Both the position numbers and the translations under genes were made by a program. This document shows, in pieces, positions 363 through 25,193 of a stretch of DNA of 64,000 bases (positions within the stretch are counted from its first letter, which is position 1; each line of letters starts with the position of its first letter). The stretch lies in assembly GCA_036785375.1 (NCBI GenBank), contig JAWMAR010000070.1, positions 4,898,001-4,962,000 of the forward strand. The letters run 5' to 3'. The notes under the pieces are model-generated. The model was given only the letters and a program-made list of their open reading frames with translations. It had not been told where the DNA came from and did no database searches. This stretch comes from Leucoraja ocellata (lineage: Eukaryota).

Positions 363-686
363 GGTCAAGGGGAATAACTGGACCCGAGGAGGTGAGGGGA
401 GAGTTGGGGCAGTCGGTCACTGTGGAATGTCAGTATGGTCAGGAATACAGTGACTACAAGAAGCTGTGGAGTAAAGGTTATTATTACCGGTCATCTTCTA
501 TCGTGGTTTCTACTGATGACCCACGACGAGGGAGAACATCGATAAGTGATAACAAAACACAACGGATAGTTTCAGTAACCATCGGCAACCTGGAGAAGAG
601 TGATGAAGGACGCTACTGGTGTGCGATTGCAAAGGGAACATTTTCAAGCGATGAAAGGACCTCCATCTCATTGACGGTTTCTGAAG
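363..686 (+). CDS. Gene A (activating-type CD300/pIgR-like receptor): IgV exon
   Basis: ccacag acceptor ends at 362; GAAG|gtacgt donor; 324 nt, phase 1-1. Encodes GQSVTVEC...KLWSKG...GRTSISD...NLEKSDEGRYWC...LTVSE, a CD300/pIgR-type V-set. The leader and probably further Ig exons lie upstream of the window. Confidence 0.9.
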
Positions 687-2004
687 GTACGTTGACGATC
701 TCTCCTCACTCTCCCAGATGTGAACATTCCAGCCTGGGAATTCCCGGCCTCGGTCCTGACGGTGACTCGGTGCCACATCCCCGGGGGTCGGGGTGAAGGA
801 GGGGGGAGCACATTTACTGGGGCCACACCAAGAGCCCACTGTCCCAGGAGCAGTGTGTGTGGGGGGGGGGGGGGTGTGGGGGGGGGGGCTCATCAATGGG
901 GACCGGCGGTTCTGCTGCTGGCGGCTCATTTCCCCAAAGACGATCGCTCCGGGTCCAGAACCTCTGCCGCCCCTCGCTGGAGCAGGGGAACAGCCAGAAC
1001 CTCTGGTGCCCCCTCACCCTCTCCCCCTGCCCGTCACTGTCACACCCACCACGCACACAACATCTGAAGAAGGGTCCCAACCTTAAACATTGTCAGTTCA
1101 TTCCTTCCACGGATGCTGCCTGACCTGCTGAGTTACTCCAGCACTTTGTGTTTTGTTCAAGATTCCAGCACCTGCAATTCCTTGTGTCTCACAAACTTTG
1201 GTGATTGATGAGCTCAGTTTATTGTTGTCGTCTGTACTGAGGTACAGGGAAAAGCTTTTACCATGTTTCCAATGAGGGCCAAGTCATTGGGTATTTTTAA
1301 GATTCACAGGTTCTGAATTAGTACGGGTGTCAAGTGATATGGGGAGAAGGCAGGAGAATGGGGTTGAGAGGGAGAGATAGATCAGCCGTGATTGAAAGGT
1401 GGAATAGACTCAATGGGCCAAATGGCCTCAATCTGCCCCTATCACTTATGAACTAATGAACTAAGAATCCTCAAGAGATGAGTGATATAGACTTTACACT
1501 GAGCCACACAAACTGTACAAGATGAGATACTCAACGGGTCGGGCAGCTTCTGTGGAGAGAGAACGAGAGTTAATGTTTCAGGTAGATACCTCCAACCAAA
1601 TTGCATTATTTCCAATTCAGTCCGCGTAATGAAAATAGTCCATGGATCGTCCCGCTCCCAAGTTCTTCTCCAACATAGAAGACATGTGCCTAACTCTAGC
1701 AGCAGGCAGATAACACAGCCTGTGGGACTCTGAAGGGCATGAAAGAAGTCTCTGAATGCTTGTGACCAACTGGTGGCATCTTAATGGGTGAGCCTCCGGT
1801 CTAGATCAAGAGGCTTGGTCCAACTATGGTGGCCTCAGAAGGATCTTTGCTCAAATGTATGGATTGGGATTTGAATCCAGGAATCTCCCCACACGGAGCA
1901 AGAGCGCTCCTGACTGAGGCATCTCCCACACATCACTAAAGTGGCACAGAACGTGCTTTCAGACATTTAATGTTCAAAAACGTCATTCACTTTATCTCCA
2001 CAAG

Positions 2005-2146
2005 GGTCTCAAACAAGCCGCCCAGACATGGTCACCACCACCTCTGCAACAATAAACAGAAGGGCTCGGACCACCCGGCCTCAAGATGCACCAACCACCC
2101 GGGCGGCAAGTTCCACTGAGTCTCATGGTTCAACACTTCCAAACAG
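2005..2146 (+). CDS. Gene A: Ser/Thr/Pro-rich mucin-like stalk exon
   Basis: ccacaag acceptor, AACAG|gttagt donor; phase 1 in, 2 out. Encodes GSQTSRPDMVTTTSATINRRARTTRPQDAPTTRAASSTESHGSTLPNR; paralogous to 21815-21968. Confidence 0.85.
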
Positions 2147-2706
2147 GTTAGTAACTCGAAGAGCCAACTCAGCCTCACCTGAGAACAAATTAGTTCAGTT
2201 CAATTCAGCTCAGTTTAAAGATACAGCGTGGAAATGGGCCCTTTGGCCCACCGAGTCCGCTCTGAGCAGCGATCACCCCATACACCAGTTCTGTTCTACA
2301 CACTAGGGGCAACTTACTACAAACCCGCACGTCTTTGGAATGTGGGAGGAAACTGGAGAACCCAGAGTAAACTCTTGCGATCACAGGGAGAACGTACAGA
2401 CTCTGCACTGACAGCACCGGTATCAGGATCGACCCCGCATCTACTGTGCTGTGAGGCAGCAACTCTACCGCTGAGCTGACATCTCAATGGGCGAGCCTCA
2501 TGTCTACATCAAGGGGCTTGGTCCATCTATGGTGGCCTAGGAAGGATCCTTGCTCAAATCTCAGGTTTGGGATTCGAACCAAGAATCTCCCCACACAGAG
2601 CAAGATCGCCCCCAACTGAAGCATCTCCCACACGTCACTAAAGTGGCACAGAACGTGATTATAAACATTTAATGTTCAAAGACTTCATTCACTTTATCTT
2701 CACAAG

Positions 2707-2754
2707 GGTCTCAAACATATCACCCAGATATCCTCACCACTTTGGTGCGTGTGT

Positions 2755-2785
<31 letters not shown>

Positions 2786-3200
2786 TTGCACGGTGGCGCA
2801 GCGGTAGAGTTGCTGCCTTACAATGCTTGTAGCGCTGGAGTCCCTGGTTCGATCCCGACTACAGGTGCTGCCTGTACGGGGTTTGTACGTTATCCCCATT
2901 ACCGCATGGGTTTTCTCTGAGATCTTTGATTTCCTCCAACACTCTAAAGACATACAGGTATGTAGGTAGATTGGATTGGCGTATGTGTCAATTGCCCCTA
3001 GTGTGTGTAGCCTAGTGTTAGTGTGAGAATCGATGGTCGGTGTGGACTCCATGGGCCGTCGGTCCTGTTTCCGCGCTATATCTCAAAATTAAACTAAACT
3101 GGATTAAAATATGGTCACCACCACCTCAGGAACCACCACACCCACTCTGCCTCCGGAAGCATCGACCACCAGGGACTCCTGGTTCATCGCCTCGACACAG
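2707..3200 (+). pseudogene. Relic second stalk exon split by a SINE
   Basis: 2477-2745 is a diverged copy of 1777-2045, including the cacaag|ggtctcaaac acceptor. A SINE follows, then 3111-3200 continues as MVTTTSGTTTPTLPPEASTT and ends at cag|gtcagt. Confidence 0.6.
2788..3100 (+). mobile_element. tRNA-derived HE1/V-SINE-type element (representative of dozens of copies)
   Basis: ggtggcgcagcggtagag A-box-like head, ggttcgatccc B-box and (aaact)n tail. Other copies include 2195-2475(-), 12142-12445(-), 12841-13140(+) and 47050-47340(-). Confidence 0.8.
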
Positions 3201-3828
3201 GTCAGTGACTCAAAGTCCCAGAACTTTGAGAAAGCGTGGCTGATCACATTCCAGTCCATTGATAAATACTCCTTGGCCCTGACTAAAGTCCCTCTGTCCT
3301 TAGTACACCCAGTGGCCCTACCATTGTGAATGTCTACCCTTACATGATGCCAAAAACAAATAACTTCACACTTATCACGGTTCAATACCTGCTGGCATTG
3401 CTCTGCCCAACATACCAGTTGCTTCTTATCCCTCTGTGGTCTATGATTATCGTACTATCCAAAATGAGACAATGTTGGTGTAATCTGTAAACTCGTAAAT
3501 CATACTTCCAACATTAACATCTAAGGCCGGCAGATGGGACTAGTGTAGATAAGGACATCTTGGTCGGCGTGGGGGAAATTGGGTCAAAGGACATGTTTTC
3601 ATGCTCTATGTCTGACCATCAACATGAACATCTAAGTTGTTAATGTATGTAGTCATGGAACACCTCCAAGGAATGGGTGCATGTTGCGATATCAACATCT
3701 CACCAATGTCCACGCCAAAACCTTGGATCACACTGAATGATTCCGTGGGCAATATGATGAAAGAAGATTGCCAGCGTTGATCTGTGGTAACTCTGTGTGG
3801 AAGTAATAATATTTCCTTGGATTTCCAG

Positions 3829-3943
3829 GGACACCATGCTGAACATCGTTTGCCGTGTTTGGGGTGTGTTACGCTGGGTACTCTTTGGAATTCTGCTTCT
3901 CTTCCCGGTTTCCATCAGCTGTGTGACAACTTTGAAAAGGTGA
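3829..3943 (+). CDS. Gene A: transmembrane exon with intramembrane Arg and stop codon
   Basis: ttccag acceptor, phase 2 matching the stalk exon. Encodes RDTMLNIVCRVWGVLRWVLFGILLLFPVSISCVTTLKR then TGA (3941-3943). A possible donor AAAAG|gtgaaa overlaps the stop. Confidence 0.8.
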
Positions 3944-4037
3944 AAGTTTGCAATCTCTTCACTCTGGTGTTCACATTAAATTCAACTGGAAATGATGGGA
4001 ATTTACTTTAGAATTGTAGAGATAAAGTGTGGACATA

Positions 4038-4165
4038 CAGCGCCCTCCATAATGTTTGGGACAAAGACATTTATTTATTTGCCTCTGTATTCCACAATTT
4101 GAGATTTGTAATTGAAAAAATCACATGTGGTTAAAGTGCACATGGTCAGATTTTATTAAAGGGTA
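4038..4165 (+). mobile_element. Tc1/mariner-like terminal fragment inside a SINE
   Basis: TA|CAGCGCCCTCCATAATGTTTGGGACAAAGAC resembles a Tc1 TIR start and interrupts a SINE copy. Confidence 0.55.
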
Positions 4166-7100
4166 TACAGCCAATCAAGTCCGTGCCGACCAATGATCAC
4201 CCCGTACACGCGCACTATCCTACACACGAGGGACAATTTACAATTATACAGAGGCCAATTAACCTACAAAACTACACGTCTTTGGATTGTGGTAAGAAAC
4301 CAGAGCACCCGGAGAAAACCCACGCTGTCACAGGCAGAACACACAAACTCCGTACAGACAGCACCCGTAGTCATGATCAAACCCGGGTCTCTGGCGCTGT
4401 AAGGCAGCAACTCTACCGCTGCGCCACTGTGCCGCCCTGGGTCATTTCCTCGGGTAAAATTTGATGGTGGAGATTATAAACTGTGTTTTAATTGTTATTC
4501 AAGGAAAAAAACAGCCAAGACCTTGGAGATGGGGTCGGCAGTGGTGGAGGAAGGAGAGGAACAGCGCCGGTGAGCTGGCTGGGTGAGGCCTCACCTCGCA
4601 TGGAGACGGCCGTGGGAGGCGAGGGGAAAAGGGTGCGTTGGTGGGTCGAGGTGTGGGCGGAGTGCGAGTGGGCTGCTGGAGGGCCCTGCAGCAGCCGGTG
4701 GATCGGGTGCCGCTGGAGGTCACACAGAGGTCGGGGACGAGCGCGCGGATCGGACACGGCCTGCAGCGGCACGGAGCGGTGGTGGAGGCACCGACAACAT
4801 CGCCAGGCCAGGCCGACCCCTGCAACTCCCACCCAGTGCCGTCTCCACGATAATAGGCCTTTAAACCCAAAATAGGACTCTGCTTTTTGACCAATTTGAT
4901 CTTTAAGAATATAAGATACTGCCAGTAATGTGGCAACTCTTGTGTCTGCATCATATAATCTGCTATTAATACTCTTGTTCTTAGCTTCAGCTGTGCTTAT
5001 ATCAAGTAAGATTTTTACTGAATTCTATACAAAAGAAATGTCACTGTACCCATGTGCATGAGACAATAAAGTACCATTGAACCATTGAACAATGGGGATA
5101 TAAAAACGGTTAAATGATTACGTATTGAACTGTGGACACGCGTTAGAAGAATAAGATAAAAATGAAGGGTAATCGTTATATCAATATTGTTATTCTGACA
5201 GAATGACGCCCAATAATCATTGTTTAGCTTTTCAGGGCCAGAGAGGGTGTTCACCAGTTGGAGATGTACAAATCTCATCACCTTGACCCTACAGCATCAT
5301 CACACCCCACCTATGTCCAATCTACCTTGACCACTACGCGAGGAATTTCTTTAGCCAGAGGGTGATGAATCTGTGGAATTAATTGCCACAGTCGGCTGTG
5401 GAGGCCAAGTCAATGGATATTTTTAAATTGGAGATTGACATGTTTACTCAGGGTGACAAAGGTTGTGGGAAGAAGGCAGGAGAATGGGATGGAGGGGGAA
5501 AGATAGATCATCCATGATTGAATGGCGGAGTAGACTTGATGGAGCAAATGGCCGAATTCTGTAACTATGTTTGCAGACACGTCTGTACATCCTGACATTC
5601 ACCCAAAAGACAGCAGAACATAGACTAGAACTCAAAGCTGGCTTTCCAGAATGTGAACTTTTAACTTTACTACCAATTGAATTGCTGTGTGAAACCCTGC
5701 ACATTGAATAATGATTAAAATAATCCAATGTAATAAAAGATGGCTGAATTTTTGTCATAAAGTCATAAGTGATAAGAGTAGAATTAGTTTGGTTTAGAGA
5801 TAGCGCATGGAAACAGGCCCATTGATCCACCGAGTCCATGCCGACCACTGATCACCTGTACACACTATGTTTAAGAAGGAACAGCAGATGCTGGAAAAGC
5901 GAAGGTAGACAAAAACGCTAAGTTTCTCCAGCATTGTTGTCTACCTGTACACACACTAGTTCTGTTATCCCACTTTCTCATTCATTCCCTACACATTTGC
6001 GACAATCTTGCAGAGGTATTTAACCTACAAACTCGCATGGATTAGGGATGTGGGAGGAAGCCGGAGCACCTGGAGGAAACCCATGAGGTCACAGGTAGAA
6101 CATTCAAACTCCACACAGGCAGCACCCGTAGAGAGGATCGAACCCGGGTCTCTGGTGCTGTGAGGCAGCAGCAAACCGCTGCACCACCGTGCCGCCCTGA
6201 AGAGAGAGAGCAGGCTTGTGAGAGCAGACAGCAGAGCAGCAGGCCAGCTAAATGCCTCATCAGAGTGACAGCACCTTCAGCAACTTTAGACACAGTGCTT
6301 AGAACAAATGGAATCAAGGGATATGGGGAGAGAGCAGGAACTGTGTACTGATTTATGTTGATCTGCCACGATCATATTGAATTGCGGTGCTGGTTCGAAT
6401 GGCCGAATGGCCTACTCCAGCGCCTATTTTCTATGTTTCCACATCAGAGCTCCCTCAGTACAACTCTCCCTCCGTGCTCGGCATTCTGGAGTGGGAACTG
6501 AACCAAAATCTCTCTAACTCACTCAATAGTTTTCACCCACTGAGCTTGCACTGCAGGACCCAACACTGGATCTTGGTGTGGCTCGGTTAGCGTGGTAAAG
6601 TCACACAGGACTCCTGCTAGAAACAGCGTGGGAAATGTTGAACCTAGACCACAGGTCACTCATTGAAAAACCATGTGAAACCCAACCCATTCTGAAAGTC
6701 TCAATGACTTCATTTTTGCATTCAAGGAATCTATGGCAACCTCTTTAGTTTAGCCAATTATAGTCACGTGTACCGCGGTGCAGTGAAAAGCTTTTCTGTG
6801 TGTATGCTACCCAGTCAGTGAAAACACTGTATACAATTACAATCGAGCCGTCCACAGGTACAGGATACAGGGAATAATGTTCAATGCAAGATACAGTCTA
6901 GTAAAATCCGATTAAAGATAGTTCCAAGGTCTCGAATGAGGTAGTTGGGAGGTCAGGACCACTCTGAAGGGTCCCATCGAGAAATGTTACCCATCCTTTT
7001 TGTCCAGAGAAGCTGCTTGACCCGCTGAGATGCTCCAACACTTTGTGCCTATCTGTGGTATAAACCAGCATCTGAAGTTCCTTGTTTCTACATTCCGCCC

Positions 7101-7444
7101 TTGTAGTCTTGTGTGCATCTAATTTGGACACAACAAGTTCCCTTTAAAAAACAACAACTATCCTACAGATTACTTTGATGTCTTTGGTTGATGGGATACC
7201 TCTTGCCCCAGAGCAAGGAGATCCTCCACTATTCTGGTGCGAACCATTACAAAATGCTCTGTTCTTTAGAATTATTTACTCAGCGCCTTGAATGATGTTT
7301 AGCCACGGGCCTCACTGTACTGGGTGAGGTGCTAATGATAAACTGCTCAACACTCGATCGTTCCATCAACAATTGTCGTTGTGTTGTGTGCAGCCAAATT
7401 GCACACAGCTAGCTCCCTGTAGAGAAGGGAGATAACTACCTCCG

Positions 7445-7951
7445 CAGTGGTTCCCAACCTTTTTTTGGCCATGCCCCACCTAATCACCTCTAAAATCCTG
7501 ATGCCCCCCCCCCCCCCCCCCATGTGGTGATATATAATTCTTATTTAAAAAGTGAACTCCGTTTCAGCTGAAGAAGCTTAAAACGCCAATACCTTGGTTT
7601 AAACAAGGTTCAAAAGAACTTGGCATCCATGAAAAAGACAAATGAATTAAAAGAAAGACAGTTAAAGTTCTGAGCAAGAAATTACTAAAAAATTGTAAAA
7701 AAAAAAGAAAAAAACATTAGGTGGTATTAAAATAATAATAATGAAACTACACAATAAAGACCTTTTTTACCCCAAAAAAATTATTTACTCAAAATAACAT
7801 CTGAAACATAAACTACATATGTTTACCTGATGGAAAATCCCAAAAAAAAATCGAACATTTGGACCCAGACCTCCTCAGTCGCACTCAATTGCTCCCCTTA
7901 AAAATCAAATTGCCCCCCTGTGGGGCGTACGCCCCACGTTGGGAACCACTG
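7445..7951. mobile_element. hAT-type MITE
   Basis: TIRs CAGTGGTTCCCAAC...GTTGGGAACCACTG with a degenerate ~8-bp TSD (acctccg/acctacag). The empty site is visible in the paralog near 14459 (atctacagcttgcc). Confidence 0.8.
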
Positions 7952-9067
7952 ACCTACAGCTTGCCTTGTTGATCTTGGTTTGTAGGGAGAACTCTTGCCC
8001 CCAGAACAAGGAGTCTCTCCCCTATTCTGGTGCGAACTATCTCCAGGTGACCTTTCTCAGTGACTTGAGACAGAGCAGACAGCAGATCAGCTAAATGCCT
8101 CGGCAAAGTGACTTCACCTCCAGCAGTGGCGAGCTCCCTCAGTACTGCACTCCCTCAGTCCTCGGGCTTCAGGAGTGGGAGTTGAACCAACAACTCTCTG
8201 ACTCAGATTTTTTTTTTAATTTCAAAATATACTTTATTCAAAAAATAAATATATGCAATACATGATCCTTACAAAACTCCATTCAACATTCTCGGTTGCT
8301 ATGCGTACATGCAATACTGTTTACACAAATTAACCCCACACCTCGCCACTCGTGGACCACTGGCGCGGGATACCTTCCCTTATTTTGAGGTGCATCTCCG
8401 CCACACACTGCCACAAGCTGACCTTTCGCTGGATGTCTACACTGGCCCATGGTGTGGCTCAGTTAGCCTGTGAAAGTCACCCAAGACACCCTCGAGAGAG
8501 AGAGGGTGATGAATCTGTGCCCTAGCCTCAGAATAAAAGGACATTCTTTGAGAAAGGAGATTGGAAGGAATGTCTTTAGTCAGAGGGTGGTGAATCTGTG
8601 GAAATCATTGCGATAGAAGGATGTGGAGGTCAAGTCAATGGATATTTTGAAGGCAGAGATTGATAGATTCTTGATTAGTACGGGTGTCAGGGGTTACGGG
8701 GAGAAGGCAGGAGAATGGGGTCAAGAGGGAAAGATAGATCAGCCATGATTGATTGAATGGCAAAGTGGACTTGATGGGCCGAATGGCCTAATTCTGCTCT
8801 TATAACTTATGAACATGACCTGGATTGATCTGCTCATCTATATTCACACAGAGGTTCCTTGATCGTCAGTGGGGAGGGTGTGCTGCCTGTCCTATACCAC
8901 TGTAGGACATTGGCTATTCGGTCCATCAAGTCTACTCCGCCATTCAATCATGGCCGATCCATCTCTCCCTCCTAACCCAATTTTCCTGCCTCTCCCCATA
9001 ACCTCTGACACCTGTACTAATTAAATTCAGACTAATTAATCCGAAAGAATCCATCTATCCACCGATA

Positions 9068-10836
9068 AAGGTGAATTTATTATGGGGAACAAGGAAATGG
9101 CAGATGAGATGAACAGATACATTGGATCTGTCTTCACTAAGGAGGACACAAACAATCTTCATGATATAGTAGTGGCCAGAGGATCTGGGGGTGACAGAGG
9201 AACTGAAGGAAATCCACAATAGGCAGGAAATGGTATTGGATAGACTGATGGGACTGAAGGCTGCTAAATCCCCAGGGCCTGATGGTCTGCATCCCAGGGT
9301 ACTTAAGGAAGTGACTCTAGAAATCGTGGATGCATTGGTGATAATTTTCTATAGACTCAGGATCCGTTCCTGTGGATTGGAGGGTAGCTAACGTTATCCC
9401 ACTTTTTAAGAAAGGCGGGAGAGAGAAAACGGGGAATTATAGACCAGTTAGCCTGACATCGATGGTGGGGAAGATGCTGGAGTCAATTATAAAAGATGAA
9501 ATAGCCGAACATTTGGATAGCAGTAACAGGATCGGTCCGAGTCAGCATGGATTTATGAAGGGGAAATCATGCTTGCCTTATCTTCTGGAATTTTTTGAAG
9601 ATGTAACTAGGAAAATGGACAAGGGAGAGCCAGTGGATGTAGTGTACCTGGACTATCAGAAAGCGTTTGATAAGGTCCCACATAGGATATTAGTGGGCAA
9701 AATTAGGGCACTTGGTATTGGGGGTTGAGTGCTGACATGGATAGAGAAGTGGTTGGCAGACAGGAAGCAGAGAGTTGGGATTAAATGGTCCCTTTCAGAA
9801 TGGCAGGCAGTGACTAGTGGAGTACCGCAAGGCTCGGTACGGGGACCGCAGCTATTTACAATATGCATCAATGATTTGGATGAAGGGATTGAAAGTAACA
9901 TTAGCAAATTTGCAGATAACACAAAGCTGGGTGGCAGTGTGAACTGTGAGGTGGATGCTATGAGAATGCAGGGTGACTTGGACAGGTTGGAGGAGTGGGC
10001 AGATGCATGGCAGATGAAGTTTAATGCGGATAAATGTTAGGTTATCCACTTTCGTAGCAAAAACAGGAAGGCAGATTACTATCTAAATGGTGTCAAGTTG
10101 GGAAAAGGGGAAGTACAACAGGATCTGAGGGTCCTTGTACATCAGTCTACGAAAGTAAGCATGCTGGTACAGCAGGCATGGAAGAAAGCGAATGGCATGT
10201 TGGCGTTTATAACAAGAGGAATCGAAAATAGGAGGAAAGAGGTCCTTCTGCAGTTGTACAGAGCCCTAGCGAGACCACACCTGGAGTATTGTGTGCAGCT
10301 TTGGTCCCCTAATTTGAGGAAGGACATTCTTGCTATTGAGGGAGTGCAGCGTAGGTTTACAAGGTTAATTCCCGGTATGGCGGGACTGTCATATGCTGAG
10401 AGAATAGAGCAGCTGGGCTTGTACACTCTGGAGTTTAGAAGGTTGAGAGGAGATCACATTGAAACATATGATTGTTAAGGGCTTGGACATGTTAGAGGCA
10501 GGAAACATGTTCCCGATGTTGGGGGAGTCCGGAACCAGGGGCCATAGTTTTAGAATAAGGAGTAAGCCATTTAGAATGGAGACGAGGAAACACATTTTGT
10601 TACAGAGAGTGGTGAGTGTGTAATTCTCTGCAGCAGAGGGCGGTGGAGGCAGGTTCTCTGGATGCTTTCAAGAGAGAGCTAGTTAGGGCTCTTAAACATA
10701 GCGGAGTTAGGGGGTATGGGGAGAAGGCAGGAATGGGTTACTGATTGGGGATGATCAGCCATGATCACATTGAATGGCGGTGCTGGCTCGAGGGGCCGGA
10801 TGGCCTACTCCTGCACCTATTGTCTATTGTCTATTG
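9068..10836 (+). mobile_element. CR1-clade LINE, 5'-truncated, decayed RT
   Basis: KSPGPDG, NYRPVSLTS, YLDYQKAFDKVPH, SGVPQGS, KFADNTK and RPHLEYCVQ motifs with stops; (ctattgt)n tail. Confidence 0.92.
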
Positions 10837-13800
10837 AGTTCCACAGATTCATCACCCTCTGACTAAAGGTTTATTGAGCAATTCTTTGCAATAATGCATC
10901 TGCAACTTACATATCAACAGTGCCTTAAAGGTGTGTAAAAGTCTCGAGATTCTTCACAGCACCATTGTCAGGTGGAATTTGGCATCGAATCACATGCTGG
11001 TTAGATATACAGCATGGAAACAGACCCTTCGGCCCACCGAGTCCATGCTGACCATCGATCACCCGTTCACACTAGTCCCACGTTACACCACGTTTGCATG
11101 CACTCCCTACACATTGAGTGCGATGCGACAAGAGGGCCAATTAACCTACAGAGCCACACGTCTTTGGGATGTGGGAGGAAGCCGGTGCACCCAGAGGAGA
11201 CCCACGCTGTCACAGGGAGAACGTGCAAACTCCTTACTGATAGCGCCGGAGATCAGAATCGAACCGGGGTCTCTGGGGGCGGTTGCAGTTCCACCTACAG
11301 CTAACCCAACCCCACAAATATCACCCAGAACGAGCCTCACCATCTCCAGTGTAGCAGTGTTACAACACAATGTGAGCAACTCACGTCAAAATAGGTTGAG
11401 AAACAGGAAGCCACAAGGAAGTACAGATGCAGTAATATCTGATAGTCTGCTCGGGTAGATTGCAACCCAATGGTGGGAACATTGAATTTTCTAGTTTTAA
11501 GTAACTAACCCACAACAATCCTTTCCACTAACCTCCGTCCCTTTCCACATATATATATCCTTTCTTCCAGCTTCACATTTCATGTCTCTTCTCTCCATAT
11601 CTCACAGCCTTTTATCTTCTTTCCATCTCTGGCCTTCATCCACCCATCAGCCAATAACCCTCCCTCCCTCACCTGTATCCATCTACCACTTGCCAGGTAT
11701 CATCCTTCCCCCACCTCTCTCCCAGCTCTCTCCACCCTACCACAATCAGCCTGAAGAAGGGTCCCAACCCAAAACGTCACCTATCCATGTTCTCTGGAGA
11801 TGCTGCCTGGCCCATTTACTCCAGCATTACATGTCTGTTTTTGAGAAATAGGAAGTTGTGAAGTCGATAAGAAGATTTGAACACCAATGTAAATATTTTG
11901 AAACCAAGTCATTGGTTCTTCGGGTTAGGGTTGTTATGACTATGCAGGGTGGGTTATCAGGTCTGTGAGGTGTGGAGAACTATGGTCAAGTCCAAATCCA
12001 CTCACATGTCACATTGCCAGGGTGAGTGGGGCAGAGCAGGGCGTGGCACTGGCATCAGCGTTAAACTCATAGAGTCATACAGCACTGAAACAGGCCCGTC
12101 TTCCCAACTTGACCATGCTGACCAAACTGCCCACCTGCACTAGTTTAGTATAGAGGTACAGCGTGGAAACTGGCCCTTCGGCCCACCGAGTCCGCACCAA
12201 ACAGCAATCCCCACACATTAACACTATCCTACACGCACTAGGGACTATTTACACTTATTCCAAGCCAACTAACCTACAAACCTATACGTTTTTAGAGTGT
12301 GGAAGGAAACTGAAGATCCCGGAGAAAACCCAGGCGGTCACGTGGAGAACGTACAAACGCCATACAGACAGCACCCGTAGTCGGGATCAAACCCGACTGT
12401 AAGCGCTGTAAGTCAGCAGCTCTACCACTGTTCCACCATGCCGCACTAGTCCACTAGTCCCACTTGCCCCCGTTTGACCCATCTCCTCTTATATCGGTAA
12501 AGATCCAGTTTTTACCCTCAGTCCCGAGGTAGTGTCTCGGCCGGAATACAAACATACACTTTTTGCCTCCACAGATGCTGCTTGAACCGTTGAGTTTTTC
12601 AGGTGTTCTGCCTATTGTTCCAGATTCTAGTATATGCAATCTCTTTTATCTTCTCCCCTCACACAACCCTAATCCTACCTCAACAATATTATCTCACAGA
12701 AGCTGATGGGTACATGGAAGGAACATGTCCAGAGGAGCTAGTGGAGACTGGTACTGGTAACAACATTGAAAAGCATTAGGACAAGGTACGTGGATAGGAA
12801 AGGTTTGTAGGGACAGGGGTCAAATGCAGGCCTGGTTTTTACGGTGGCACAGCAGTAGAGTTGCTGCCTTACATTGTATAACAGCGCCAGATACCCGGGT
12901 TCAATCCTGGCTACAGGTGCTTGTCTGTACATAGTCTGTACTTTCTCCTAGTGACCTGCGTGGGTTTTCTCCGAGAACTTCAGTTTCCTCCCACACTCCA
13001 AAGACGTACAGGTTTGTAGGTTAATTGGGTTGGTGTAAATGTAAACATTTGTGTTGCTGTGCAGGGATCACTGGACGGTGCGGACACAGTGGGCCGGATG
13101 GTTTGTTTCCCCACTGTATCTCTAAACTAAACTAAACTAAAGAGGGACCAGCGTACATGGGACATCTTGATCAGCATTGGGCAAGCTGTTTCCCTGCTGT
13201 ATCACTCTATGATTTTATGAATCACATCCTCAAACTCAGCTTTACCCGGTCTCCGATGCTCAAGTATGTGAATTGTCTTTCAAGGAGTTTATCTGGTGAC
13301 GTGAGTTGACATCAGTTCGCATTTGACAATAGACAACAGACAATAGGTGCAGGGAGTAGGTCATTCGGACCTTCGAGCCAGCATCACCATTCAATGTGAT
13401 CATGGCTGATCATCCATAATCCCCGTTCCTGCCTTCTCCCCTTATCCCCTGACTCTGCTATCTTTAAGAGCCCTATCTAGCTCTCTCTTGAAAGTGTCCA
13501 GAGAACCGGCATCCACCGCTCTCCGAGGCAGAGAATTCCACAGACTCACAACTCACTGGGTGATAAAGTGTTTCCTCATCTCCGTTCCGTTGGTGTCTTT
13601 TTTCTCCTGGGTAATGTTTCAACAGATGAGAAGCTGAGGAAGGCTGGACAAATTAGTGACGCGCATTTTGAGGTGGGTAAACAGATCACAAGTTCACACA
13701 TTCCAGGAGTAGAATTTGGCCATTCGGCCCATCCAGTCTACTCTGCCATTCAAACACGGCTGATCTCTGCCTCCTAATCCCATACAAGTTCAGACACAGT

Positions 13801-14003
13801 GTGCCCGCATTTGGGGGAGGGGCTTGAGGGGGTGGGCAAGGGAATGTTTGCGGTGGTGGACAGAGCGCCAGTCAAGTGGGCAAATGTCACCAGGATGAAG
13901 CAGAGCTTCGAGGAGATGCTCCAATCCAGGCAACTGGAGAGTGTTGTAACCCACTCCTGATAGGGGCATTGTCCGTGGTGAGGAGGCTGGGGGAGGTGAC
14001 AAG

Positions 14004-14092
14004 TGAGTCACCAGGTTAGTCTTGAACCACTGCAAAGTCGTTTCCTGTGTAAACGGAAATTGACTGTTTGACTTCAGTTGTGAATGAGGAAG
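14004..14092 (+). promoter_or_regulatory. Candidate proximal promoter of gene B (AP-1 and ETS/PU.1-like sites)
   Basis: TGAGTCA 14004-14010, TTTCCTG 14041-14047, CGGAAAT 14054-14060 and GAGGAAG 14086-14092, all within about 140 nt upstream of the ATG. Confidence 0.45.
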
Positions 14093-14144
14093 AGGACAAC
14101 TCAAACGCAGTGCAGGGACCAAACCGATCCAACGTAGTCGAGAC

Positions 14145-14241
14145 ATGGCGGTGGGACAGGGAGAATTCACCCACCAGAGATGGCCCAGATCCAGGGGAAC
14201 AGTCGCTCTGTTGGTTCTTGTCGCTGTTGTTCTCACATCAG
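14145..14241 (+). CDS. Gene B (inhibitory receptor): leader/signal-peptide exon
   Basis: gacATGG start; MAVGQGEFTHQRWPRSRGTVALLVLVAVVLTS-G with a hydrophobic core; G|gtaaat donor, phase 1, matching the Ig exons. Confidence 0.8.
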
Positions 14242-16786
14242 GTAAATCGTTGTTTTACAAAATGCTCTGTTCTTTAGAATTATTTACCAACGCCTTGAAT
14301 TATTTGTAACCACAGACCTCTCTGTACTGTGTGGGGAGCTGATGATAAATTGCTCAACACTCGTTAGTTCCTGTAGAGACTTCCATCAGCGGTTGTTGTC
14401 GTGTTGTGTGCAGCCAAGTCGCACACAGCTAGCTCCCTGTGGAGAAGGGAGATAACTATCTACAGCTTGCCTTGCCTTGTGGACCTCATTGAAACTTACT
14501 GAATAGTGAAAGGCCTGGATAGAGTGGATGGGGTGAGGATGTTTACACTAGTGGGAGACTCTAGGACCAGATGTCGCAGCTTCAGAATTAAAGGGCGTTG
14601 CTTTAGGAAGGAGATGAGGAGAAATTTCTTGAGACAGAAACTGTGGAATTCATTGCCACAGATTGTGGAGGCCATCAATAGGTATTTCTAAGGCCGAGAT
14701 GGATAGATTCTTGATCAGTACTGGTGTCAGGAGTCCTGGGGAAAAGGCAGGAGGATTTAGTTGAGAGGGAAAGATAGATCAGCCATAATTGAATGGAGGA
14801 GAGTAGACTTGACGGGCTAAATGGCCTAATTCTGCTCCTAGTACTAATGAACTTATGATCTGTTCTTCAGAATTATTTGCCAGCAGCTTGAATTATTTTG
14901 AGCCACAGATTAGACTACTGGGCTACGAACTGCTAAAGATAAAATGCTTGCAGACATTTTCTTCCCTGCACTAATGACTGTTGTGATGCTGTGTGCTCAG
15001 TGACTTGACAGCAGATCAGCTAAACGCTTTACCCCTTGCATATCTCTTGACTTCCTCCCTCCCTGACTGTGGGTCTGAAGAAAGGTCTCGACCCGAAACG
15101 TCAGCCATTCCTTCTATCCAGAGATGCCCCCTGATCCGCTGCGTTACTGCAGCATTTAGTGTCTATCAAAGACACACGGCACTCCCTCCACGCACTGTAA
15201 TGGGAAATGTTGAACCTAAACCTTAGCACATTCAAAGAAAAAACCTGTGAAAGCCAGCCATTGGGAACAGGCGGGCATCTCAAATGAGGAAGCACCAGAG
15301 TGACTGTCCAATTTAGCATTTGGAGAAGTTGTGGTAATCTCTCCCTTCTGAGAAAAACCAGCTGCCTTACAACAGACTCTGCTGCTCGAGCTATTCTACA
15401 CACTGTGCTTTCCCCAGCCTCTGAGTTCTCCTTCAAGGCATTTGTCTTGTGGCTTGTGAGCCGACCTGGACTGATGTGATGATGTGTCTCCACCCCAGCT
15501 CCTGAATCTGCAGAGTTTCACATGTGTTAGAGTCATAGAGTGATACAGCCTGGAAACAGGCCCTTCGGCCCTTCTTGCCCACACCGGCCAACATGTCTCA
15601 GCAACACTAGTCCCACCTGTCCATGTTTGGTCCAAGTCCCTTCAAACCTGTCCTATCCATGTATCCAGAGGGCCCCACCCTCTCCGGAGACTAAGAAAAG
15701 CAGGTCTCCCTACTGTTCACCTAAGGTCCTACAGGGGCACCATCGAGAGTATACTGACCCACGGCATCACTTCCTGGTTTGGGAGCTGCAGGGCTTATGA
15801 ACAAAAGCAACTTAACAGGATAGTGAAGACAGCCAGTAGGATCATTGGTGCTCCACTCCCTTTCCTGTTGGAGATCTATCAGAAGCGTAACATCAGCAGA
15901 GCCATCTCCATTATTAAGGACCCCCATCATCCATCACACCACATCTCCCTCACTCCCAAATGGGTCCCGCGAGTAAGGGGGCCCCGCGCCAGTGTAATCT
16001 ACTCTCGGCTCAGGTAGATCTACCCCGGGTGGAGAGAGAGTAGAGGGGTGGAGGGGGAAGAAGGGGATAGACGGGGAGCGGGGTGTGAGGGGGAATGGAG
16101 AAGGGGGAGAGGGGGAGGTGGGTCGTTCGCTCACGGCAGCGCTCCTGCCCCTCCAGTCGCCGTGCTTCACACACACAGCCCCGGCTCCACCCCTCTCTCT
16201 CCCCGGGGAGAGGCAGTGAACAATACACAGAGGGCTGGGCCGGGGGTTGGGGCATCGTATACAAACATCGACCTCAGCTCACACCCGTCTGCCCGGACCC
16301 CGGCATCCCTCTCCCTCCCTTCTCTCCTTCCCTCCCTCCTTCCGCTCTTTTCCTTTCTCTCATTCGCTCCATAGCGTCTTTCTCTACTTCCCTCCCTCCC
16401 TCCCACACACACACACACGATGCACAGACAACTAACACACACAACTAAGTTAAGATGGGGTAGAAAGAAACCTTTTCACCCAGAGAGTTGTGAATCTGTA
16501 GAATTCTCTACCACAGAGGGCAGTGGAGGCCAATTCACTGGATGTATTCAAGAGAGAGTTAGATTTAGCTCTTAGGGCTAATGGAATCATGGGAGCAAGC
16601 AGAACTGGGCAGTGCCGGCTCGAAGGGCCGAATCGTCTCCTCCTGCGCCTATTTTCTATGTTTATATGTTTCTATGAATCATCATCTATCCACTTTCTCC
16701 AGAGATAGTTCCTGTCCAGTTTAAGGTTGTGACCTCAATAAGGGGTAGGCCATTGAGGACTCAGATGAGGAAATATCTTTTCACCC

Positions 16787-17340
16787 ATATAACCATATAA
16801 CCATATAACAATTACAGCACGGAAACAGGCCATCTCGGCCCTACAAGTCCATGCCGAACAATTTTTTTTCCCCTTAGTCCCACCTGCCTGCACTCGTACC
16901 ATAACCCTCCATTCCCTTCTCATCCATATGCCTATCCAATTTATTTTTAAATGATACCAATGAACCTGCCTCCACCACTTCCACTGGGAGCTCATTCCAC
17001 ACCACCACCACTCTCTGCGTAAAGAAGTTCCCCCTCATATTACCCCTAAACTTCTGTCCCTTAATTCTGAAGTCATGTCCTCTTGTTTGAATCTTCCCTA
17101 TTCTCAAAGGGAAAAGCTTGTCCACATCAACTCTGTCTATCCCTCTCATCATTTTAAAGACCTCTATCAGGTCCCCCCTTAACCTTCTGCGCTCCAGAGA
17201 ATAAAGACCTAACTTATTCAACCTATCTCTGTAACTTAGTTGTTGAAACCCAGGCAACTTTCTAGTAAATCTCCTCTGTACTCTCTCTATTTTGTTGACA
17301 TCCTTCCAATAATTTGGCGACCAAAATTGTACCCCAAAAT
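16787..17340 (-). mobile_element. CR1-clade LINE 3' fragment
   Basis: VQFWSP...LERRRLRGDLIEVFK...FFTQRVV; (ccatataa)n tail. Confidence 0.85.
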
Positions 17341-18070
17341 TGTACACCCAGAGAGTTCCTCTTTCTCCAGAAATAGTTCCTGTCCCGTTGTGTTACTCCG
17401 GCACTTTGTGTCCTTTTGTACATTAACCAGCATCTGCAGTTCCTTGTTTCTACTAGTTCAATGGGGAAGTGGGTTGTAGTGAGATTGAACACAGGGTGGG
17501 TCAGAGTGAGTGACAGGTTGGCTTCCTGTCACATGACCACCACTCAGGTCAAGCCACGCCCACAGGGAAGGAGGATCTGGGCGCCAGGTAGATTCAGGAG
17601 CAGTGTTCAAGAAGGAACTGCAGATGCTGGAAGATAGATATCGCAGTGGAGTAGACAAAGTGTTCAAGAAGGAACTCAGTTCTGCTTTCACTGGAACTTG
17701 GGGAAAAATCCCGGTGAAATGGGAATTAACACCAGCGGGAAAAGCATTAAAGTGCAACAGGATCTATGCAGAAGAAGAGACACAAAATGCTGGAGTAACT
17801 CAGCGGGACGGGCAGCATCTCTGGAGAGAAGGAAATGGGCGAGGAAACATCACCCGTCGGTTTCTCCAGAGATGCTGCCTGTCCCGCTGAGTTACTCCGG
17901 CTCTTTGTGTCTATCTTTGGTGTAAACCAGCACCTGCAGTTCCTTGCTACACATGATCTATGCAAAACCATGAACCTGTCTGAACAGCACAAATGACATG
18001 TTTTTTATTGTTAAACCACAGCTTGTGTTGCTGCAGTGTGTGTGATCTTTCATCATTAATGTGCCCACAG

Positions 18071-18394
18071 GGTCAAGGGGAAAAACTGAAGTCGAGGAGG
18101 TCTGGGGACAGTTGGGGCAGCGGGTCAAAGTGGAATGTCAGTATGATCGGAAATACAAAGACAACGACAAGCTATGGAGTAAAGGTGATTATTACCAGAA
18201 ATCTTCTATCGTGGTTTCTACTGATGACCCACAACAAGGGAGAACATCGATGACTGATGACAAATCACAACGGATAGTTTCAATCACCATCGACAACCTG
18301 GAGGAGAGTGATGAAGGATACTACTGGTGTGTGATAGTAAAGGGAAACGATTCGCCCATTGAATTGGCCTCCATCTCATTGACGGTTTCTGAAG
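18071..18394 (+). CDS. Gene B: IgV exon D1
   Basis: ccacag acceptor, GAAG|gtaagt donor, 324 nt, phase 1-1. Encodes GQRVKVECQY...KLWSKG...DEGYYWC...LTVSE. Confidence 0.9.
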
Positions 18395-19201
18395 GTAAGT
18401 TGCCGATCTCTCCTCACTCTCCCAGATGTGAAAATTCCAGCCTGTGAATTCCCGGCCTCGGTCCTGACGGTGACTCGGTGCCACATGCCCGGGGGTCGGG
18501 GTAAGGGGGTGGGGTGGATAACTCACTTACTGGGGTCCCGGCCCGTGGGGCCACACCAAGAGCTCACTGTCGCTGGAGCAATATGGGGGGGGGGGGGGCT
18601 GTCAGACACCAGCCCCACGGAAGGTCCCATCTACCGGCGGTTCTGTTGCTGACGGCTCATTTCCACGAAGACGATCGCTCCGGGACCAGAACCTCTGCCG
18701 CCCCCTCACTGGGGCAGGTGGTGGGAAACCCGGGTGGAGATAGGAGTCAATGGGGGAGGGGGCAGGTTAGTAGAAGATACTTAAAATTAGAGAACCAACG
18801 TTCAAACCGTTGGGTTGTAAACTACCTGAGCCCAATATGAGGTGCGGTTCCTCCAATTTGCATGTGGCCTCACTCTGGCAATGGAGGAGGCCCAGGACAG
18901 AAAGGTCAGTGTGGGAATGGGAAGGGACATGGACAGGGTTGGCAACCGGGAGATCAAGAATGGTCCCGACCCGAAAAGGACACCTATCCATTTTCTCCAG
19001 AGATTCTGTCTGATCCGCGGAGTTACTCCAGCACTTTGTGTCTATCTTTGGTGTAAACCAGCACCTGCAGTTCCTTGCTACACATGATCTATGCGAAACC
19101 ATGAACCTGTCTGAACAGCACAAATGACATGTTTTTTATTGTTAAATCACAGCTAGTGTTACTGCAGTGTGAGTGATCTTTCATCATTAATGTGCCCACA
19201 G

Positions 19202-19527
19202 GGTCAAGGGGAATAACTGGACCCAAGGAGGTGAGGGAGAGTTGGGGCAGTCGGTCACTGTGGAATGTTGGTATGATCAGAAATACAAAGACAACGACAA
19301 GCGATGGAGTAAAGGTGATTATTACCAGAAATCTTCTACCGTGGTTTCTACTGATCACCCACGACTAGGGAGAACATCGATGACTGATGACAAAAAACAA
19401 CGGATAGTTTCAGTCACCATCAACAACCTGGAGGAGAGTGATGAAGGACTCTACTGGTGTGTGCTGATTGTAAAGGGAAATCATTCGCCCATTGAATCTG
19501 CCTCCATCTCATTGACGGTTTCTGAAG
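19202..19527 (+). pseudogene. Gene B: IgV exon D2 with a 1-nt frameshift (pseudo-exon or assembly error)
   Basis: Splice sites intact, length 326 nt. Reads gtgagggagag where paralogs read gtgaggggagag (one G missing near 19235). The spliced frame reaches TAG near 19366; the Ig frame is open from 19242. Confidence 0.75.
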
Positions 19528-20334
19528 GTAAGTTGATGATCTCTCCTCACTCTCCCATATGTGAAAATTCCAGCCTGTGAATTCCCGGCCTCGGTCCTGA
19601 CGGTGACTCGGTGCCACATCCCCGGGGGTCGCGGTAAGGGGGTTGGGTGGATAACTCACTTACTGGGGTCCCGGCCGTGGGGCCACATCAAGAGCTCACT
19701 GTCCCAGAGCAGTATGGGGGGGGGGGGGGGGGGACTGTCAGACACCAGCCCACGGAAGGTCCCATCTACCTGCGGTTCTGTTGCTGACGGCTCATTTCCA
19801 CGAAGACGATCGCTCCGGGACCAGAACCTCTGCCGCCCCCTCACTGGGGCAGGTGGTGGGAAACCCGGGTGGAGATAGGAGTCAATGGGGGAGGGGGCAG
19901 GTTAGTAGAAGATACTTAAAATTAGAGAACCAACGTTCAAACCGTTGGGTTGTAAACTACCTGAGCCCAATATGAGGTGCGGTTCCTCCAATTTGCATGT
20001 GGCCTCACTCTGGCAATGGAGGAGGCCCAGGACAGAAAGGTCAGTGTGGGAATGGGAAGGGACATGGACAGGGTTGGCAACCGGGAGATCAAGATGGTCC
20101 GACCCGAAAAGGACACCTATCCATTTTCTCCAGAGATTCTGCCTGATCCGCCGAGTTACTCCAGCTCTTTGTGTCTATCTTTGGTGTAAACCAGCACCTG
20201 CATTCCTTGCTACACATGATCTATGCAAAACCATGAACCTGTCTGAACAGCACAAATGACATGTTTTTTTATTGTTAAACCACAGCTTGTGTTGCTGCAG
20301 TGTGAGTGATCTTTCATCATTAATGTGTCCACAG

Positions 20335-20658
20335 GGTCAAGGGGAATAACTGGACCCGAGGAGGTGAGGGGAGAGTTGGGGCAGTCGGTCACAGTGGAAT
20401 GTCCGTATGGTCGGGAATACAGTGACAACGACAAGCGATGGAGTAAAGGTTATTATTACCGGTTTTCTTTTACCGTGGTTTCTACTGATGACCCACAATA
20501 TAGGAGAACATCGATGAGTGATGACAAAACACAACGGATAGTTTCAGTCACCATCAACAACCTGGAGAAGAGTGATGAAGGACTCTACTGGTGTGTGATT
20601 GTAAAGGGAATATTTTCAAGCAATGAAAGGACCTCCATCTCATTGACGGTTTCTGAAG
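20335..20658 (+). CDS. Gene B: IgV exon D3
   Basis: ccacag acceptor, GAAG|gtacgt donor, 324 nt; closest paralog of the gene A exon 363-686. Confidence 0.9.
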
Positions 20659-20769
20659 GTACGTTGACGATCTCTCCTCACTCTCCCAGATGTGAAAATT
20701 CCACCCTGGGAATTCCCGGCCTCGGTCCTGACGGTGACTCGGTGCCTCATCCCCGGCGGTCGTGGGGGT

Positions 20770-20805
<36 letters not shown>

Positions 20806-21814
20806 GAGATCTGCCCCCTCACCATCTCCCCCTGCCCGTCACTGTCACACCCACCACGCACACAACATCTGAAGAAGGGACCCAACCTTAAACATTGTCA
20901 GTTCATTCCTTCCACAGATGCTGCCTGACCTGCTGAGTTACTCCAGCACTTTGTGTTTTGCTCAAGATTCCAGCACCTGCAATTCCTTGTGTCTCACAAA
21001 CTTTGGTGATTCATGAGCTCAGTTTATAGTTGTCGTCTGTACTGAGGTACAGGGAAAAGCTTTTACCATGTTTCCAATGAGGGCCAAGTCATTGGGTATT
21101 TTCAGGTGGAGATTGACAGGTTCTCAATTAGTACGGGTGTCAAGTGATATGGGGAGAAGGCAGGAGAATGGAGTTGAGAGGGAGAGATAGATCAGGCGTG
21201 ATTGAAAGGTGGAGTAGACTCAATGGGCCAAATGGCCCCAATCTGCCCCTATCACTTATGAACTAATGAACTAAGAATCCTCATGAGATGAGTGATATAG
21301 ACTTTACACTGAGTCACACAAACTGTACAAGATGAGATACTCAACGGGTCGGGCAGCTTCTGTGGAGAGAGAACGAGAGTTAATGTTTCAGGTAGATACC
21401 TCCAACCAAATTGCATTATTTCCAATTCAGTCCGCGTGATGAAAATAGTCCATGGATCCTCCCGCTCCCAAGTTCTTCTCCAATGTAGAAGACATGTGCC
21501 TAACTCTAGCCGCAGGCAGATAACACAACCTGTGGGACTCTGAAGGGCATGAAAGAAGTCTCTGAATACTTGCGACCATCTGGTGGCATCTTAATGGGTG
21601 AGTCTCATGTCTAGATCAAGAGGCTTGGTCCAACTATGGTGGCCTCAGAAGGATCTTTGCCCAAATGTCTGGATTGGGATTTGAACCCAGGAATCTCCCC
21701 ACACAGAGCAAGAGCGCTCCCGACTGAAGCATCTCCCACACATCACTAAAGTGGCACAGAACGTGCTTTCAGACATTTAATGTTCAAAAACGTCATTCAC
21801 TTTATCTCCACAAG

Positions 21815-21968
21815 GATCTCAAACAAGCCGCCCAGACATGGTCAGCACCACCTCTACAACAATAAGCACAAAGGCTTCCACCACAACTCTGACCACCATG
21901 CCTCAAGGTACACCAACCACCAAGGCAGCAAGTTCTACTGAGGCTTCTAGTTCAACACCTCCAAACAG
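21815..21968 (+). CDS. Gene B: mucin-like stalk exon
   Basis: Phase 1 in, 2 out. Encodes GSQTSRPDMVSTTSTTISTKASTTTLTTMPQGTPTTKAASSTEASSSTPPNR. Confidence 0.87.
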
Positions 21969-22561: not shown

Positions 22562-22671
22562 GGGCACATTTCAATGGCAGCTTGTTCTATCGATCGCCTT
22601 GACAATTGTCTTTCTTCTGTTCATCGCTGGCATTATCCTATGTGTAAAAATGAGGCAGAGAAAGAAAACTG
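22562..22671 (+). CDS. Gene B: transmembrane exon (uncharged TM)
   Basis: ttttgcag acceptor, G|gtaagt donor; phase 2 in, 1 out. Encodes RGTFQWQLVLSIALTIVFLLFIAGIILCVKMRQRKKT with a basic stop-transfer cluster. Confidence 0.88.
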
Positions 22672-24327: not shown

Positions 24328-24380
24328 GCTCAAATGGACAGAGAATTATGAGTCAGCAAAATCCAGCAGACAGTTTCAAG
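24328..24380 (+). CDS. Gene B: cytoplasmic exon 1
   Basis: ttttcag acceptor, AAG|gtaagg donor; phase 1 in, 0 out. Encodes GSNGQRIMSQQNPADSFK. Confidence 0.78.
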
Positions 24381-25037: not shown

Positions 25038-25193
25038 GAAACCCCTGTCATTTATACCACCGTGACAACCCGTCCTCCAGCTAGCACGGATAATACTTAC
25101 ATGAACCTTCAGGATCTGAACACACAAGGACAAGCCAAGAGGCAAGGTGCCGCAGAAGTTGTGTACGCAACAATTCTCACTGATAATAATTAA
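25038..25193 (+). CDS. Gene B: terminal ITIM exon
   Basis: Encodes ETPVIYTTVTTRPPASTDNTYMNLQDLNTQGQAKRQGAAEVVYATILTDNN*. ITIM-like VIYTTV and VVYATI plus YMNL; phase 0 matches the previous exon. Confidence 0.85.
   Translation, partial: ETPVIYTTVTTRPPASTDNTYMNLQDLNTQGQAKRQGAAEVVYATILTDNN

What the first reader, a model, noticed from the sequence alone, without database searches (positions are those of the whole stretch)
363..20658. Signature of diversifying selection: Ig exon more divergent than its flanking intron
Manual codon comparison of 363-686 with 20335-20658 gives 21 differing codons: 19 amino-acid changing and 2 purely synonymous (about 27 nt of 324). The ~120 nt of intron immediately upstream (241-362 vs 20213-20334) appears identical. 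Changes fall after the B-strand Cys, around C-C', C'-D and F-G, plausibly the ligand face. Inference: host-pathogen arms race acting on the binding surface.
Basis: partly seen in the sequence, partly recalled or inferred. Interest (0 to 1): 0.7.

Follow-up and report, generated by a model that had tools for sequence, protein, structure and literature searches.

The report
Skate paired immune receptors under selection
These two exons belong to a tandem cluster of skate immune-receptor genes, seven predicted to activate cells and one predicted to inhibit them, whose antibody-like domains swap pieces with each other and change amino acids faster than silent or intron DNA changes, likely because of pressure from pathogens.

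Summary
The counts are exact: 27 nt, 21 codons, 19 replacement, 2 silent, 122 identical upstream bases. The pair alone does not show selection (dN/dS 1.8, p=0.17), and the identical intron is a best-case window (wider introns 2-4%). The family does show it. The exons lie in a skate CD300/pIgR-like cluster: 8 tandem genes and 21 Ig exons, seven with a transmembrane Arg and short tail, one with ITIM-like motifs; a colinear second haplotype has 3 genes. Over 28 domains piN/piS is 1.71 (CI 1.2-2.7), reached by 26 of 1620 neutral-plus-recombination simulations; it survives removal of CpG and multi-base codons; a neighbouring subfamily gives about 1.0. Recombination is significant and invalidates nominal codon-model p-values. 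Variable sites include the CD300 ligand pocket but spread wider, and the mucin stalk diversifies too, so 'ligand face only' is not supported. All 28 domains lack the usual second disulfide. No pathogen or ligand is shown. Known kind of evolution, new instance. No earlier scan note matched.

The parts
363..686 (+). Ig V exon A: membrane-proximal (second) domain of activating-type gene g7, whose leader and first Ig exon lie upstream of the window
   Evidence: Pfam V-set 9e-14; splice ends and upstream exons
2005..2146 (+). g7 Ser/Thr/Pro-rich stalk exon
   Evidence: matches stalks of database skate proteins
3829..3939 (+). g7 transmembrane exon with an Arg in the membrane segment (activating type, inferred)
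4504..4573 (+). g7 short cytoplasmic tail exon without tyrosine motifs, to the stop codon
14145..14241 (+). leader exon of inhibitory-type gene g8
18071..18394 (+). g8 Ig V exon B (domain 1)
19202..19527 (+). g8 Ig V exon C (domain 2); one base short in a G run near 19234, so frameshifted as assembled (assembly error or real lesion, unresolved)
20335..20658 (+). g8 Ig V exon D (domain 3, membrane-proximal)
   Evidence: Pfam V-set 9e-14
21815..21968 (+). g8 stalk exon
22562..22671 (+). g8 uncharged transmembrane exon
24328..24380 (+). g8 first cytoplasmic exon
25038..25193 (+). g8 last exon with three tyrosine motifs, two of ITIM type (VIYTTV, VVYATI)
   Evidence: ITIM consensus as given in PMC12447643

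Best explanation
The two exons are membrane-proximal Ig V domains of a predicted activating gene and the single predicted inhibitory gene of a skate CD300/pIgR-like receptor cluster, in which amino-acid changes outpace silent and intron changes and gene conversion shuffles the variants between domains and genes, likely because pathogens bind these receptors. Shown: cluster layout, gene-number difference between haplotypes, recombination, excess replacement change in Ig and stalk exons, absence of the C-C' cysteine pair. Inferred: the Arg genes signal through an ITAM adaptor; the ITIM gene is the one a pathogen would exploit; activating copies act as counter-receptors and as donors of new ectodomain sequence; introns are homogenised by conversion while selection keeps exon variants apart.
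For: piN 0.128 vs piS 0.075 over 28 domains, ratio 1.71, block-bootstrap CI about 1.2-2.7; reached by 26 of 1620 simulations with every site neutral and 1-107 independent trees, and the minimum-change ratio 1.57 by 9 of 1620. Diversity by codon position 0.119, 0.147, 0.082; 72 CpG-free columns give piS 0.037 (about intron level) and ratio 2.18; single-difference codons give 1.82. M0 omega 2.3-2.7 and M1a/M2a 2dL 147, 109, 76 with 1, 3, 6 trees; none of 36 neutral-recombination simulations reached 147. Same pipeline on the neighbouring subfamily: piN/piS 0.87-1.22, M0 omega 1.1-1.2 vs 2.5 at equal tree length. PHI p=0.002 and 0.0006; block mosaics; both Ig domains of the second haplotype's inhibitory gene are nearest to activating-gene domains (11 and 15 nt) rather than to g8 (29 and 23 nt). 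One domain is identical in a Leucoraja erinacea database protein, so the variants are not assembly noise.
Against: Nominal codon-model p-values are unusable: 33 of 36 neutral simulations with recombination reached 2dL of about 6 or more, up to 107, at slightly lower diversity than observed, so the list of selected sites is inflated. The signal is not confined to one surface and includes the stalk, which a binding-site arms race does not explain directly. Silent diversity is also raised in the variable regions (0.171 vs 0.052). The 28 domains are not independent and come from one assembly. No ligand, pathogen, expression or signalling data.
Confidence: 0.72

Rival explanations
1. Selection is real but the ligand is a polymorphic self molecule such as MHC class I; the cluster works like KIR or Ly49, with pathogens acting only indirectly.
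For: Many activating genes plus one inhibitory gene, gene number 8 vs 3 between haplotypes, divergent inhibitory alleles. Variable sites are spread over a broad surface, as for a protein ligand.
Against: Nearest solved folds are CD300lf, CD300f and pIgR, not KIR/LILR; known CD300 ligands in the passages read are lipids and a virus (PMC6166816). No test of MHC binding or of NK-cell expression.
Confidence: 0.13
2. No positive selection: relaxed constraint after duplication, with introns homogenised by conversion and codon tests inflated by recombination.
For: Recombination is significant and produces false LRT positives; the pair is not significant; the A/D near-identical stretch (3 substitutions in 420 nt, p=0.001 at 3.1%) looks like a conversion tract; frameshifts occur in some copies.
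Against: Relaxation caps the ratio at about 1; tree-free ratios exceed fully neutral simulations; about 30% of codons are invariant; 27 of 28 Ig exons are open and all length differences among those are multiples of three; the neighbouring subfamily stays near 1.
Confidence: 0.09
3. An exon-focused mutational process (CpG decay, AID-type hotspots, multi-base events) or assembly error creates the excess.
For: 13% of pairwise differences are CpG transitions; single-base indels in homopolymer-like places near 19234 and 20093-20202 suggest consensus errors.
Against: CpG-free columns 2.18 and single-difference codons 1.82; no WRC/GYW enrichment (11 of 25 vs 50 of 122 polymorphic); first and second codon positions exceed third; leader (1.2%) and activating TM exons (about 2%) are not elevated; the same variants recur in database proteins and in contigs of four public runs.
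Confidence: 0.06

Closest known systems
Mammalian CD300 (CMRF35) paired receptors, CD300A/CD300C and CD300lf
   Same: Best fold match is mouse CD300lf (TM 0.90, rmsd 1.8 A, 38% identity); V domain, Ser/Thr/Pro stalk, charged-TM and ITIM forms, conversion between the pair (PMC12447643, abstract and passages); CD300lf binds lipid and norovirus in the CC'/CDR3 cleft (PMC6166816, passages).
   Different: Two to four near-identical V domains per gene instead of one; Arg rather than Glu in the membrane; no C-C' cysteines in 28 of 28 domains; conversion here goes with diversification, not only with homogenisation; orthology and synteny untested.
MDIRs (modular domain immune-type receptors) of clearnose skate
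   Same: Described as a multigene activating/inhibitory family of skate related to CD300, TREM and pIgR (as stated in PMC3031540, passages).
   Different: The original paper (PMC3701310) was not held and the MDIR sequences could not be compared, so identity with MDIR1-4 is untested.
Automatically named 'pIgR-like' / 'CMRF35-like molecule 3' proteins of Leucoraja, Amblyraja, Rhinoraja, and more distant Narcine, Hemitrygon, Mobula, Heptranchias proteins
   Same: 75-82% identity for the skate proteins, same leader, stalk and both TM types; both TM types also in stingray and manta proteins.
   Different: Names are annotation by similarity only. Stingray and manta domains keep both extra cysteines; Narcine and one Heptranchias domain keep only the C-strand one; 17 of 18 skate database domains keep neither.
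CEACAM paired receptors (bovine CEACAM32)
   Same: Introns more alike than the Ig exon because conversion is kept in introns and selected against in the exon (PMC7042247, abstract and passages).
   Different: Unrelated receptor family; there one paralog escapes conversion, here all copies exchange exon pieces.

Membership tests
CD300/pIgR/TREM-type V-domain receptors | V-set Ig domain closest in sequence and fold to CD300/pIgR | tested here: met
   Pfam V-set; best single-domain PDB hits CD300lf 2.6e-19; Foldseek top 10 all CD300lf/CD300f
CD300/pIgR/TREM-type V-domain receptors | Second disulfide between C and C' strands (Cx6-8C) | tested here: not met
   0 of 28 domains; position 36 is S/T/K/R, position 44 always Ser. 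Neighbouring domains 99 of 99 have both; among 533 domains of the 150 best representatives 450 have both and 63 neither. So filed as CD300/pIgR-like, not as CD300.
CD300/pIgR/TREM-type V-domain receptors | Ser/Thr/Pro-rich stalk between Ig domain and membrane | tested here: met
   11 of 11 genes
CD300/pIgR/TREM-type V-domain receptors | Metal-dependent lipid binding in the CC'/CDR3 cleft | not testable with these tools
   Cleft-floor disulfide of CD300lf (PMC6166816) is absent here; binding not assayed
CD300/pIgR/TREM-type V-domain receptors | Synteny with the mammalian CD300 or PIGR locus | not tested
   Flanking single-copy genes were not identified
Paired immune receptors | Near-identical ectodomains with opposite signalling modules in one cluster | tested here: met
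   7 Arg-TM short-tail genes and 1 uncharged-TM ITIM gene on C70; 2 and 1 on C1141
Paired immune receptors | Sequence exchange between activating and inhibitory ectodomains | tested here: met
   PHI; nearest neighbours of h3 domains are activating-gene domains
Paired immune receptors | Opposite signalling and a shared ligand shown by experiment | not testable with these tools
   Inferred from motifs only
MDIR (skate) | Sequence identity with MDIR1-4 | not tested
   Paper and sequences not available
True polymeric Ig receptor | Single-copy gene with distinct, specialised V domains | tested here: not met
   Multigene cluster of 2-4 near-identical domains with activating or ITIM tails; per-domain similarity is higher to CD300lf than to any pIgR domain
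Gene under diversifying selection | Replacement rate above silent rate once recombination is allowed for | tested here: met

The most novel reading that the evidence does not exclude
This cluster is the cartilaginous-fish counterpart of KIR/Ly49: a gene-number-variable, conversion-shuffled paired receptor built on a CD300-type domain that has given up the disulfide-floored lipid pocket for a broad, hypervariable protein-binding face, with the one inhibitory gene re-drawing its ectodomain from the activating pool in each haplotype. It would be a concrete candidate for the polymorphic self/non-self receptor of sharks and rays.
Probability: 0.12. Interest if true: 0.75.

Novelty: new member of a known kind. 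Interest (0 to 1): 0.38.

Why it matters
Rapid evolution of Ig-type paired receptors is a familiar pattern, so a specialist would not be surprised. The value is the concrete case: it extends the paired-receptor, conversion-plus-selection pattern to a cartilaginous fish, shows that this disulfide-less subfamily evolves about twice as fast in replacement terms as the large neighbouring subfamily, and gives named domains and sites for ligand hunting. My eight paper searches listed no selection analysis of this skate cluster; the library lacks most subscription journals and the MDIR paper, so this is weak evidence of novelty.

Tried and rejected
Nominal M1a/M2a and M7/M8 p-values (1e-33): rejected after simulations. 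GENECONV-like scan: only 6 of 375 pairs globally significant; PHI and visible mosaics carry the recombination claim. 'Loss of the disulfide triggered the skate burst': weakened, since the C' cysteine is already Ser in Narcine and Heptranchias relatives and 63 of 533 related domains lack both. 'Selection confined to the CD300 pocket': 4 of 7 mapped pocket positions are selected (p=0.037, uncorrected for exposure; mapping by the Trp35 anchor and strand register, no coordinates available), but the rest of the domain has the same ratio. AID hotspots: no enrichment. Expression: no RNA holder listed, no evidence either way. Frameshift in exon C: contigs of 4 of 4 laid runs show the extra G, but these are paralogs from other samples, so it does not settle this copy. 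Protein search at near lengths found nothing. Direct alignment to CD300lf could not be displayed. Earlier scan notes: nothing near, nothing by words, one unrelated bacterial hit by sequence. No complex was predicted: no candidate ligand. Limits of my codon models: own GY94/F3x4 code (M0 lnL -2339.50 vs IQ-TREE -2339.55), relative branch lengths fixed, NEB posteriors, 6 beta classes. Rows dropped: 5 of 28 domains with upstream indels were left out of upstream-flank statistics; the h3 stalk was missing (45 of 55 pairs); h3 leader and g3 TM were left out of leader and TM ratios; the neighbour set is 99 domains from 42 fetched stretches, a sample of the 122 weaker hits and their surroundings, of which 95 were used.
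Full report
Observation. Corrected for site numbers the pair gives dN 0.101, dS 0.055, ratio 1.83, p=0.17. The identical stretch is not typical: it is identical in 7 of 253 domain pairs, mean 2.9%. For this pair the whole upstream intron differs at 16 of 804 and the downstream intron at 42 of 1117; the exon still exceeds the downstream intron (p=0.0016). Near-identity runs from position 1 to codon 18 (3 substitutions in 420 nt; p=0.001 at background), which I read as a recent conversion or crossover tract (inference).

What the exons are. Both encode V-set Ig domains. The best single-domain PDB hits are CD300lf; the AlphaFold model (pLDDT 89.5) matches CD300lf at TM 0.90. Database relatives at 75-82% are skate proteins auto-named pIgR-like or CMRF35-like; one domain is identical to a Leucoraja erinacea protein. 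The window is G000:C70:4898001-4962000. The genome search gave 28 close hits, 21 on C70 and 7 on C1141, and 122 weaker hits at 31-41%. The 21 fall into 8 tandem genes of about 19-20 kb with 4, 2, 4, 2, 2, 2, 2 and 3 Ig exons, each with leader, stalk and membrane exon. Seven have an Arg in the membrane segment and a short tail; the last (g8, window 14145-25193) has an uncharged segment and two ITIM-type motifs (consensus from PMC12447643). That an Arg there recruits FcR-gamma, as in LILRA or NKp46, is recalled knowledge. C1141 is colinear (0.4% substitutions upstream, 1.2-2.9% downstream) but has 3 genes; I take it as the second haplotype (inference).

Family-wide selection. Over 28 domains piN is 0.128 and piS 0.075 (ratio 1.71; bootstrap CI 1.17-2.81, and about 1.2-2.7 with blocks of 5-10 codons), against 0.031-0.032 in the flanks. 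Across 55 gene pairs: first Ig exon 9.7%, last Ig exon 8.5%, introns 3.0-3.6%, leader 1.2%, and stalk 8.9% over 45 pairs. Diversity peaks sharply inside the exon (0.225 at 473-502, 0.248 at 623-652). By position class the first domains give 1.82 (CI 1.13-3.55) and the last 1.43 (CI 0.91-2.53, not significant).

Recombination. PHI p=0.002 (28 domains) and 0.0006 (21). g1d4 and h1d3 are block mosaics of their upstream neighbour and a g3d4-like domain. The second haplotype's inhibitory gene has domains nearest to activating-gene domains (11 and 15 nt) rather than to g8 (29 and 23 nt). Site models give 2dL 147 on one tree, 109 on three, 76 on six, with about a third of sites at omega 5-6. But neutral data simulated with 6 or 20 independent trees reached 2dL of about 6 or more in 33 of 36 runs, up to 107: nominal p-values are void, although none reached 147. 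Tree-free statistics are the better test: the observed piN/piS was reached by 26 of 1620 all-neutral simulations and the minimum-change ratio (1.57) by 9 of 1620, a null that ignores the invariant core.

Mutation and artefact controls. Codon positions 1, 2, 3 have diversity 0.119, 0.147, 0.082; CpG-free columns (72 of 109) give piS 0.037 and ratio 2.18; codons differing at one base give 1.82; AID-type motifs are not enriched. The neighbouring subfamily (95 domains) gives 0.87-1.22 in matched comparisons and M0 omega 1.1-1.2 against 2.5 at equal tree length; its own LRT values (30-54) lie within the range that recombination alone produces.

Where the changes fall. 23 sites pass 0.95 in both partitioned runs. 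On the model's strands they lie on the C, CC', C', F and G side (34, 36, 42, 43, 45, 83, 98, 99, 104), on the tip loops (23, 29, 52, 54, 55, 65-67, 92, 94, 95), on strand A (7, 8) and at 61; none on strand E or the EF turn. Highest amino-acid diversity is in FG (0.47) and CC' (0.43), the two loops with which CD300lf binds both phosphocholine and murine norovirus (PMC6166816, passages). Enrichment there is modest (9 of 22, p=0.017, exposure not controlled), and the other 85 codons give 1.82. The stalk gives 2.70 (CI 1.42-7.70, 11 non-independent copies, alignment uncertain at an indel). Escape from microbial proteases that cut such stalks is one possible reason (speculation).

The missing disulfide. 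All 28 domains lack both C-C' cysteines that floor the CD300lf pocket, whereas 99 of 99 sampled neighbours keep them. Nearly all human CD300, TREM and pIgR domains have the motif, and some zebrafish NILT domains are classed as atypical for lacking it (bioRxiv 10.1101/2022.04.21.489081, passages). Among 533 domains of the 150 best representatives 63 lack both. Stingray and manta relatives keep both, Narcine and one Heptranchias domain keep one, so the pair was broken before skates or more than once. I therefore file the genes as CD300/pIgR-like paired receptors, not as CD300 proper, and MDIR membership is untested.

Mechanism. Shown: layout, copy-number difference, exchange of exon pieces, excess replacement change. 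Inferred: tandem duplication and conversion keep introns, leader and membrane exons alike; selection retains new amino-acid variants in the ectodomain, and conversion recombines them; the likely driver is a microbe that engages the inhibitory receptor, with activating copies as counter-receptors, as argued for CEACAM and CD300 pairs (PMC7042247, PMC12447643; abstracts and passages). A polymorphic self ligand is the main rival. I put diversifying selection itself at about 0.85 and the pathogen-driven version at about 0.7.

Verdict. Real, ordinary in kind, new in place. Interest 0.38. Supplements of the cited papers were not read; the MDIR paper, which could show that this family is already described, was not available.

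Noticed in passing
G000:C70 about 3.87-4.76 Mb (L057-L098): A much larger neighbouring cluster of CD300/pIgR-like V domains (122 weaker hits, part on C1141); 99 of 99 sampled domains keep the second disulfide and piN/piS is about 1.
   Followed up: partly
window 36634-36946 and about 44337-44500 (+): A separate, distant CD300-like Ig exon (31% identity, both extra cysteines present) and a downstream tail exon with three tyrosine motifs; probably another inhibitory receptor gene.
   Followed up: partly
window 19234 and 20093-20202: One-base deletions relative to paralogs (one frameshifts exon C of the only inhibitory gene); similar lesions in the h3 leader and at the g3 membrane exon start. Assembly error or real pseudogenisation unresolved.
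   Followed up: partly
window 2005-2146 and 21815-21968: The mucin-like stalk exon is as divergent as the Ig exon and has piN/piS 2.7 across 11 genes; length classes of 142, 154 and 157 nt.
   Followed up: partly
G000:C70:4785278-4785329 and 4824302-4824353; C1141:119850-119901: A 52-nt remnant of the stalk exon lies between two Ig exons of the longer genes, a likely scar of unequal crossover that added a domain.
   Followed up: no
G000:C1141 vs C70:4.77-4.93 Mb: Colinear contig with 3 genes where C70 has 8; downstream flank differs by 1.2-2.9% against 0.4% upstream, suggesting old, divergent haplotypes.
   Followed up: partly
G000:C70:4843932-4844249 and 4880624-4880941: g4d2 and g6d2 are identical exons inside a 17-kb block at 97.5% identity: a recent duplication, a conversion, or an assembly duplicate.
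   Followed up: no
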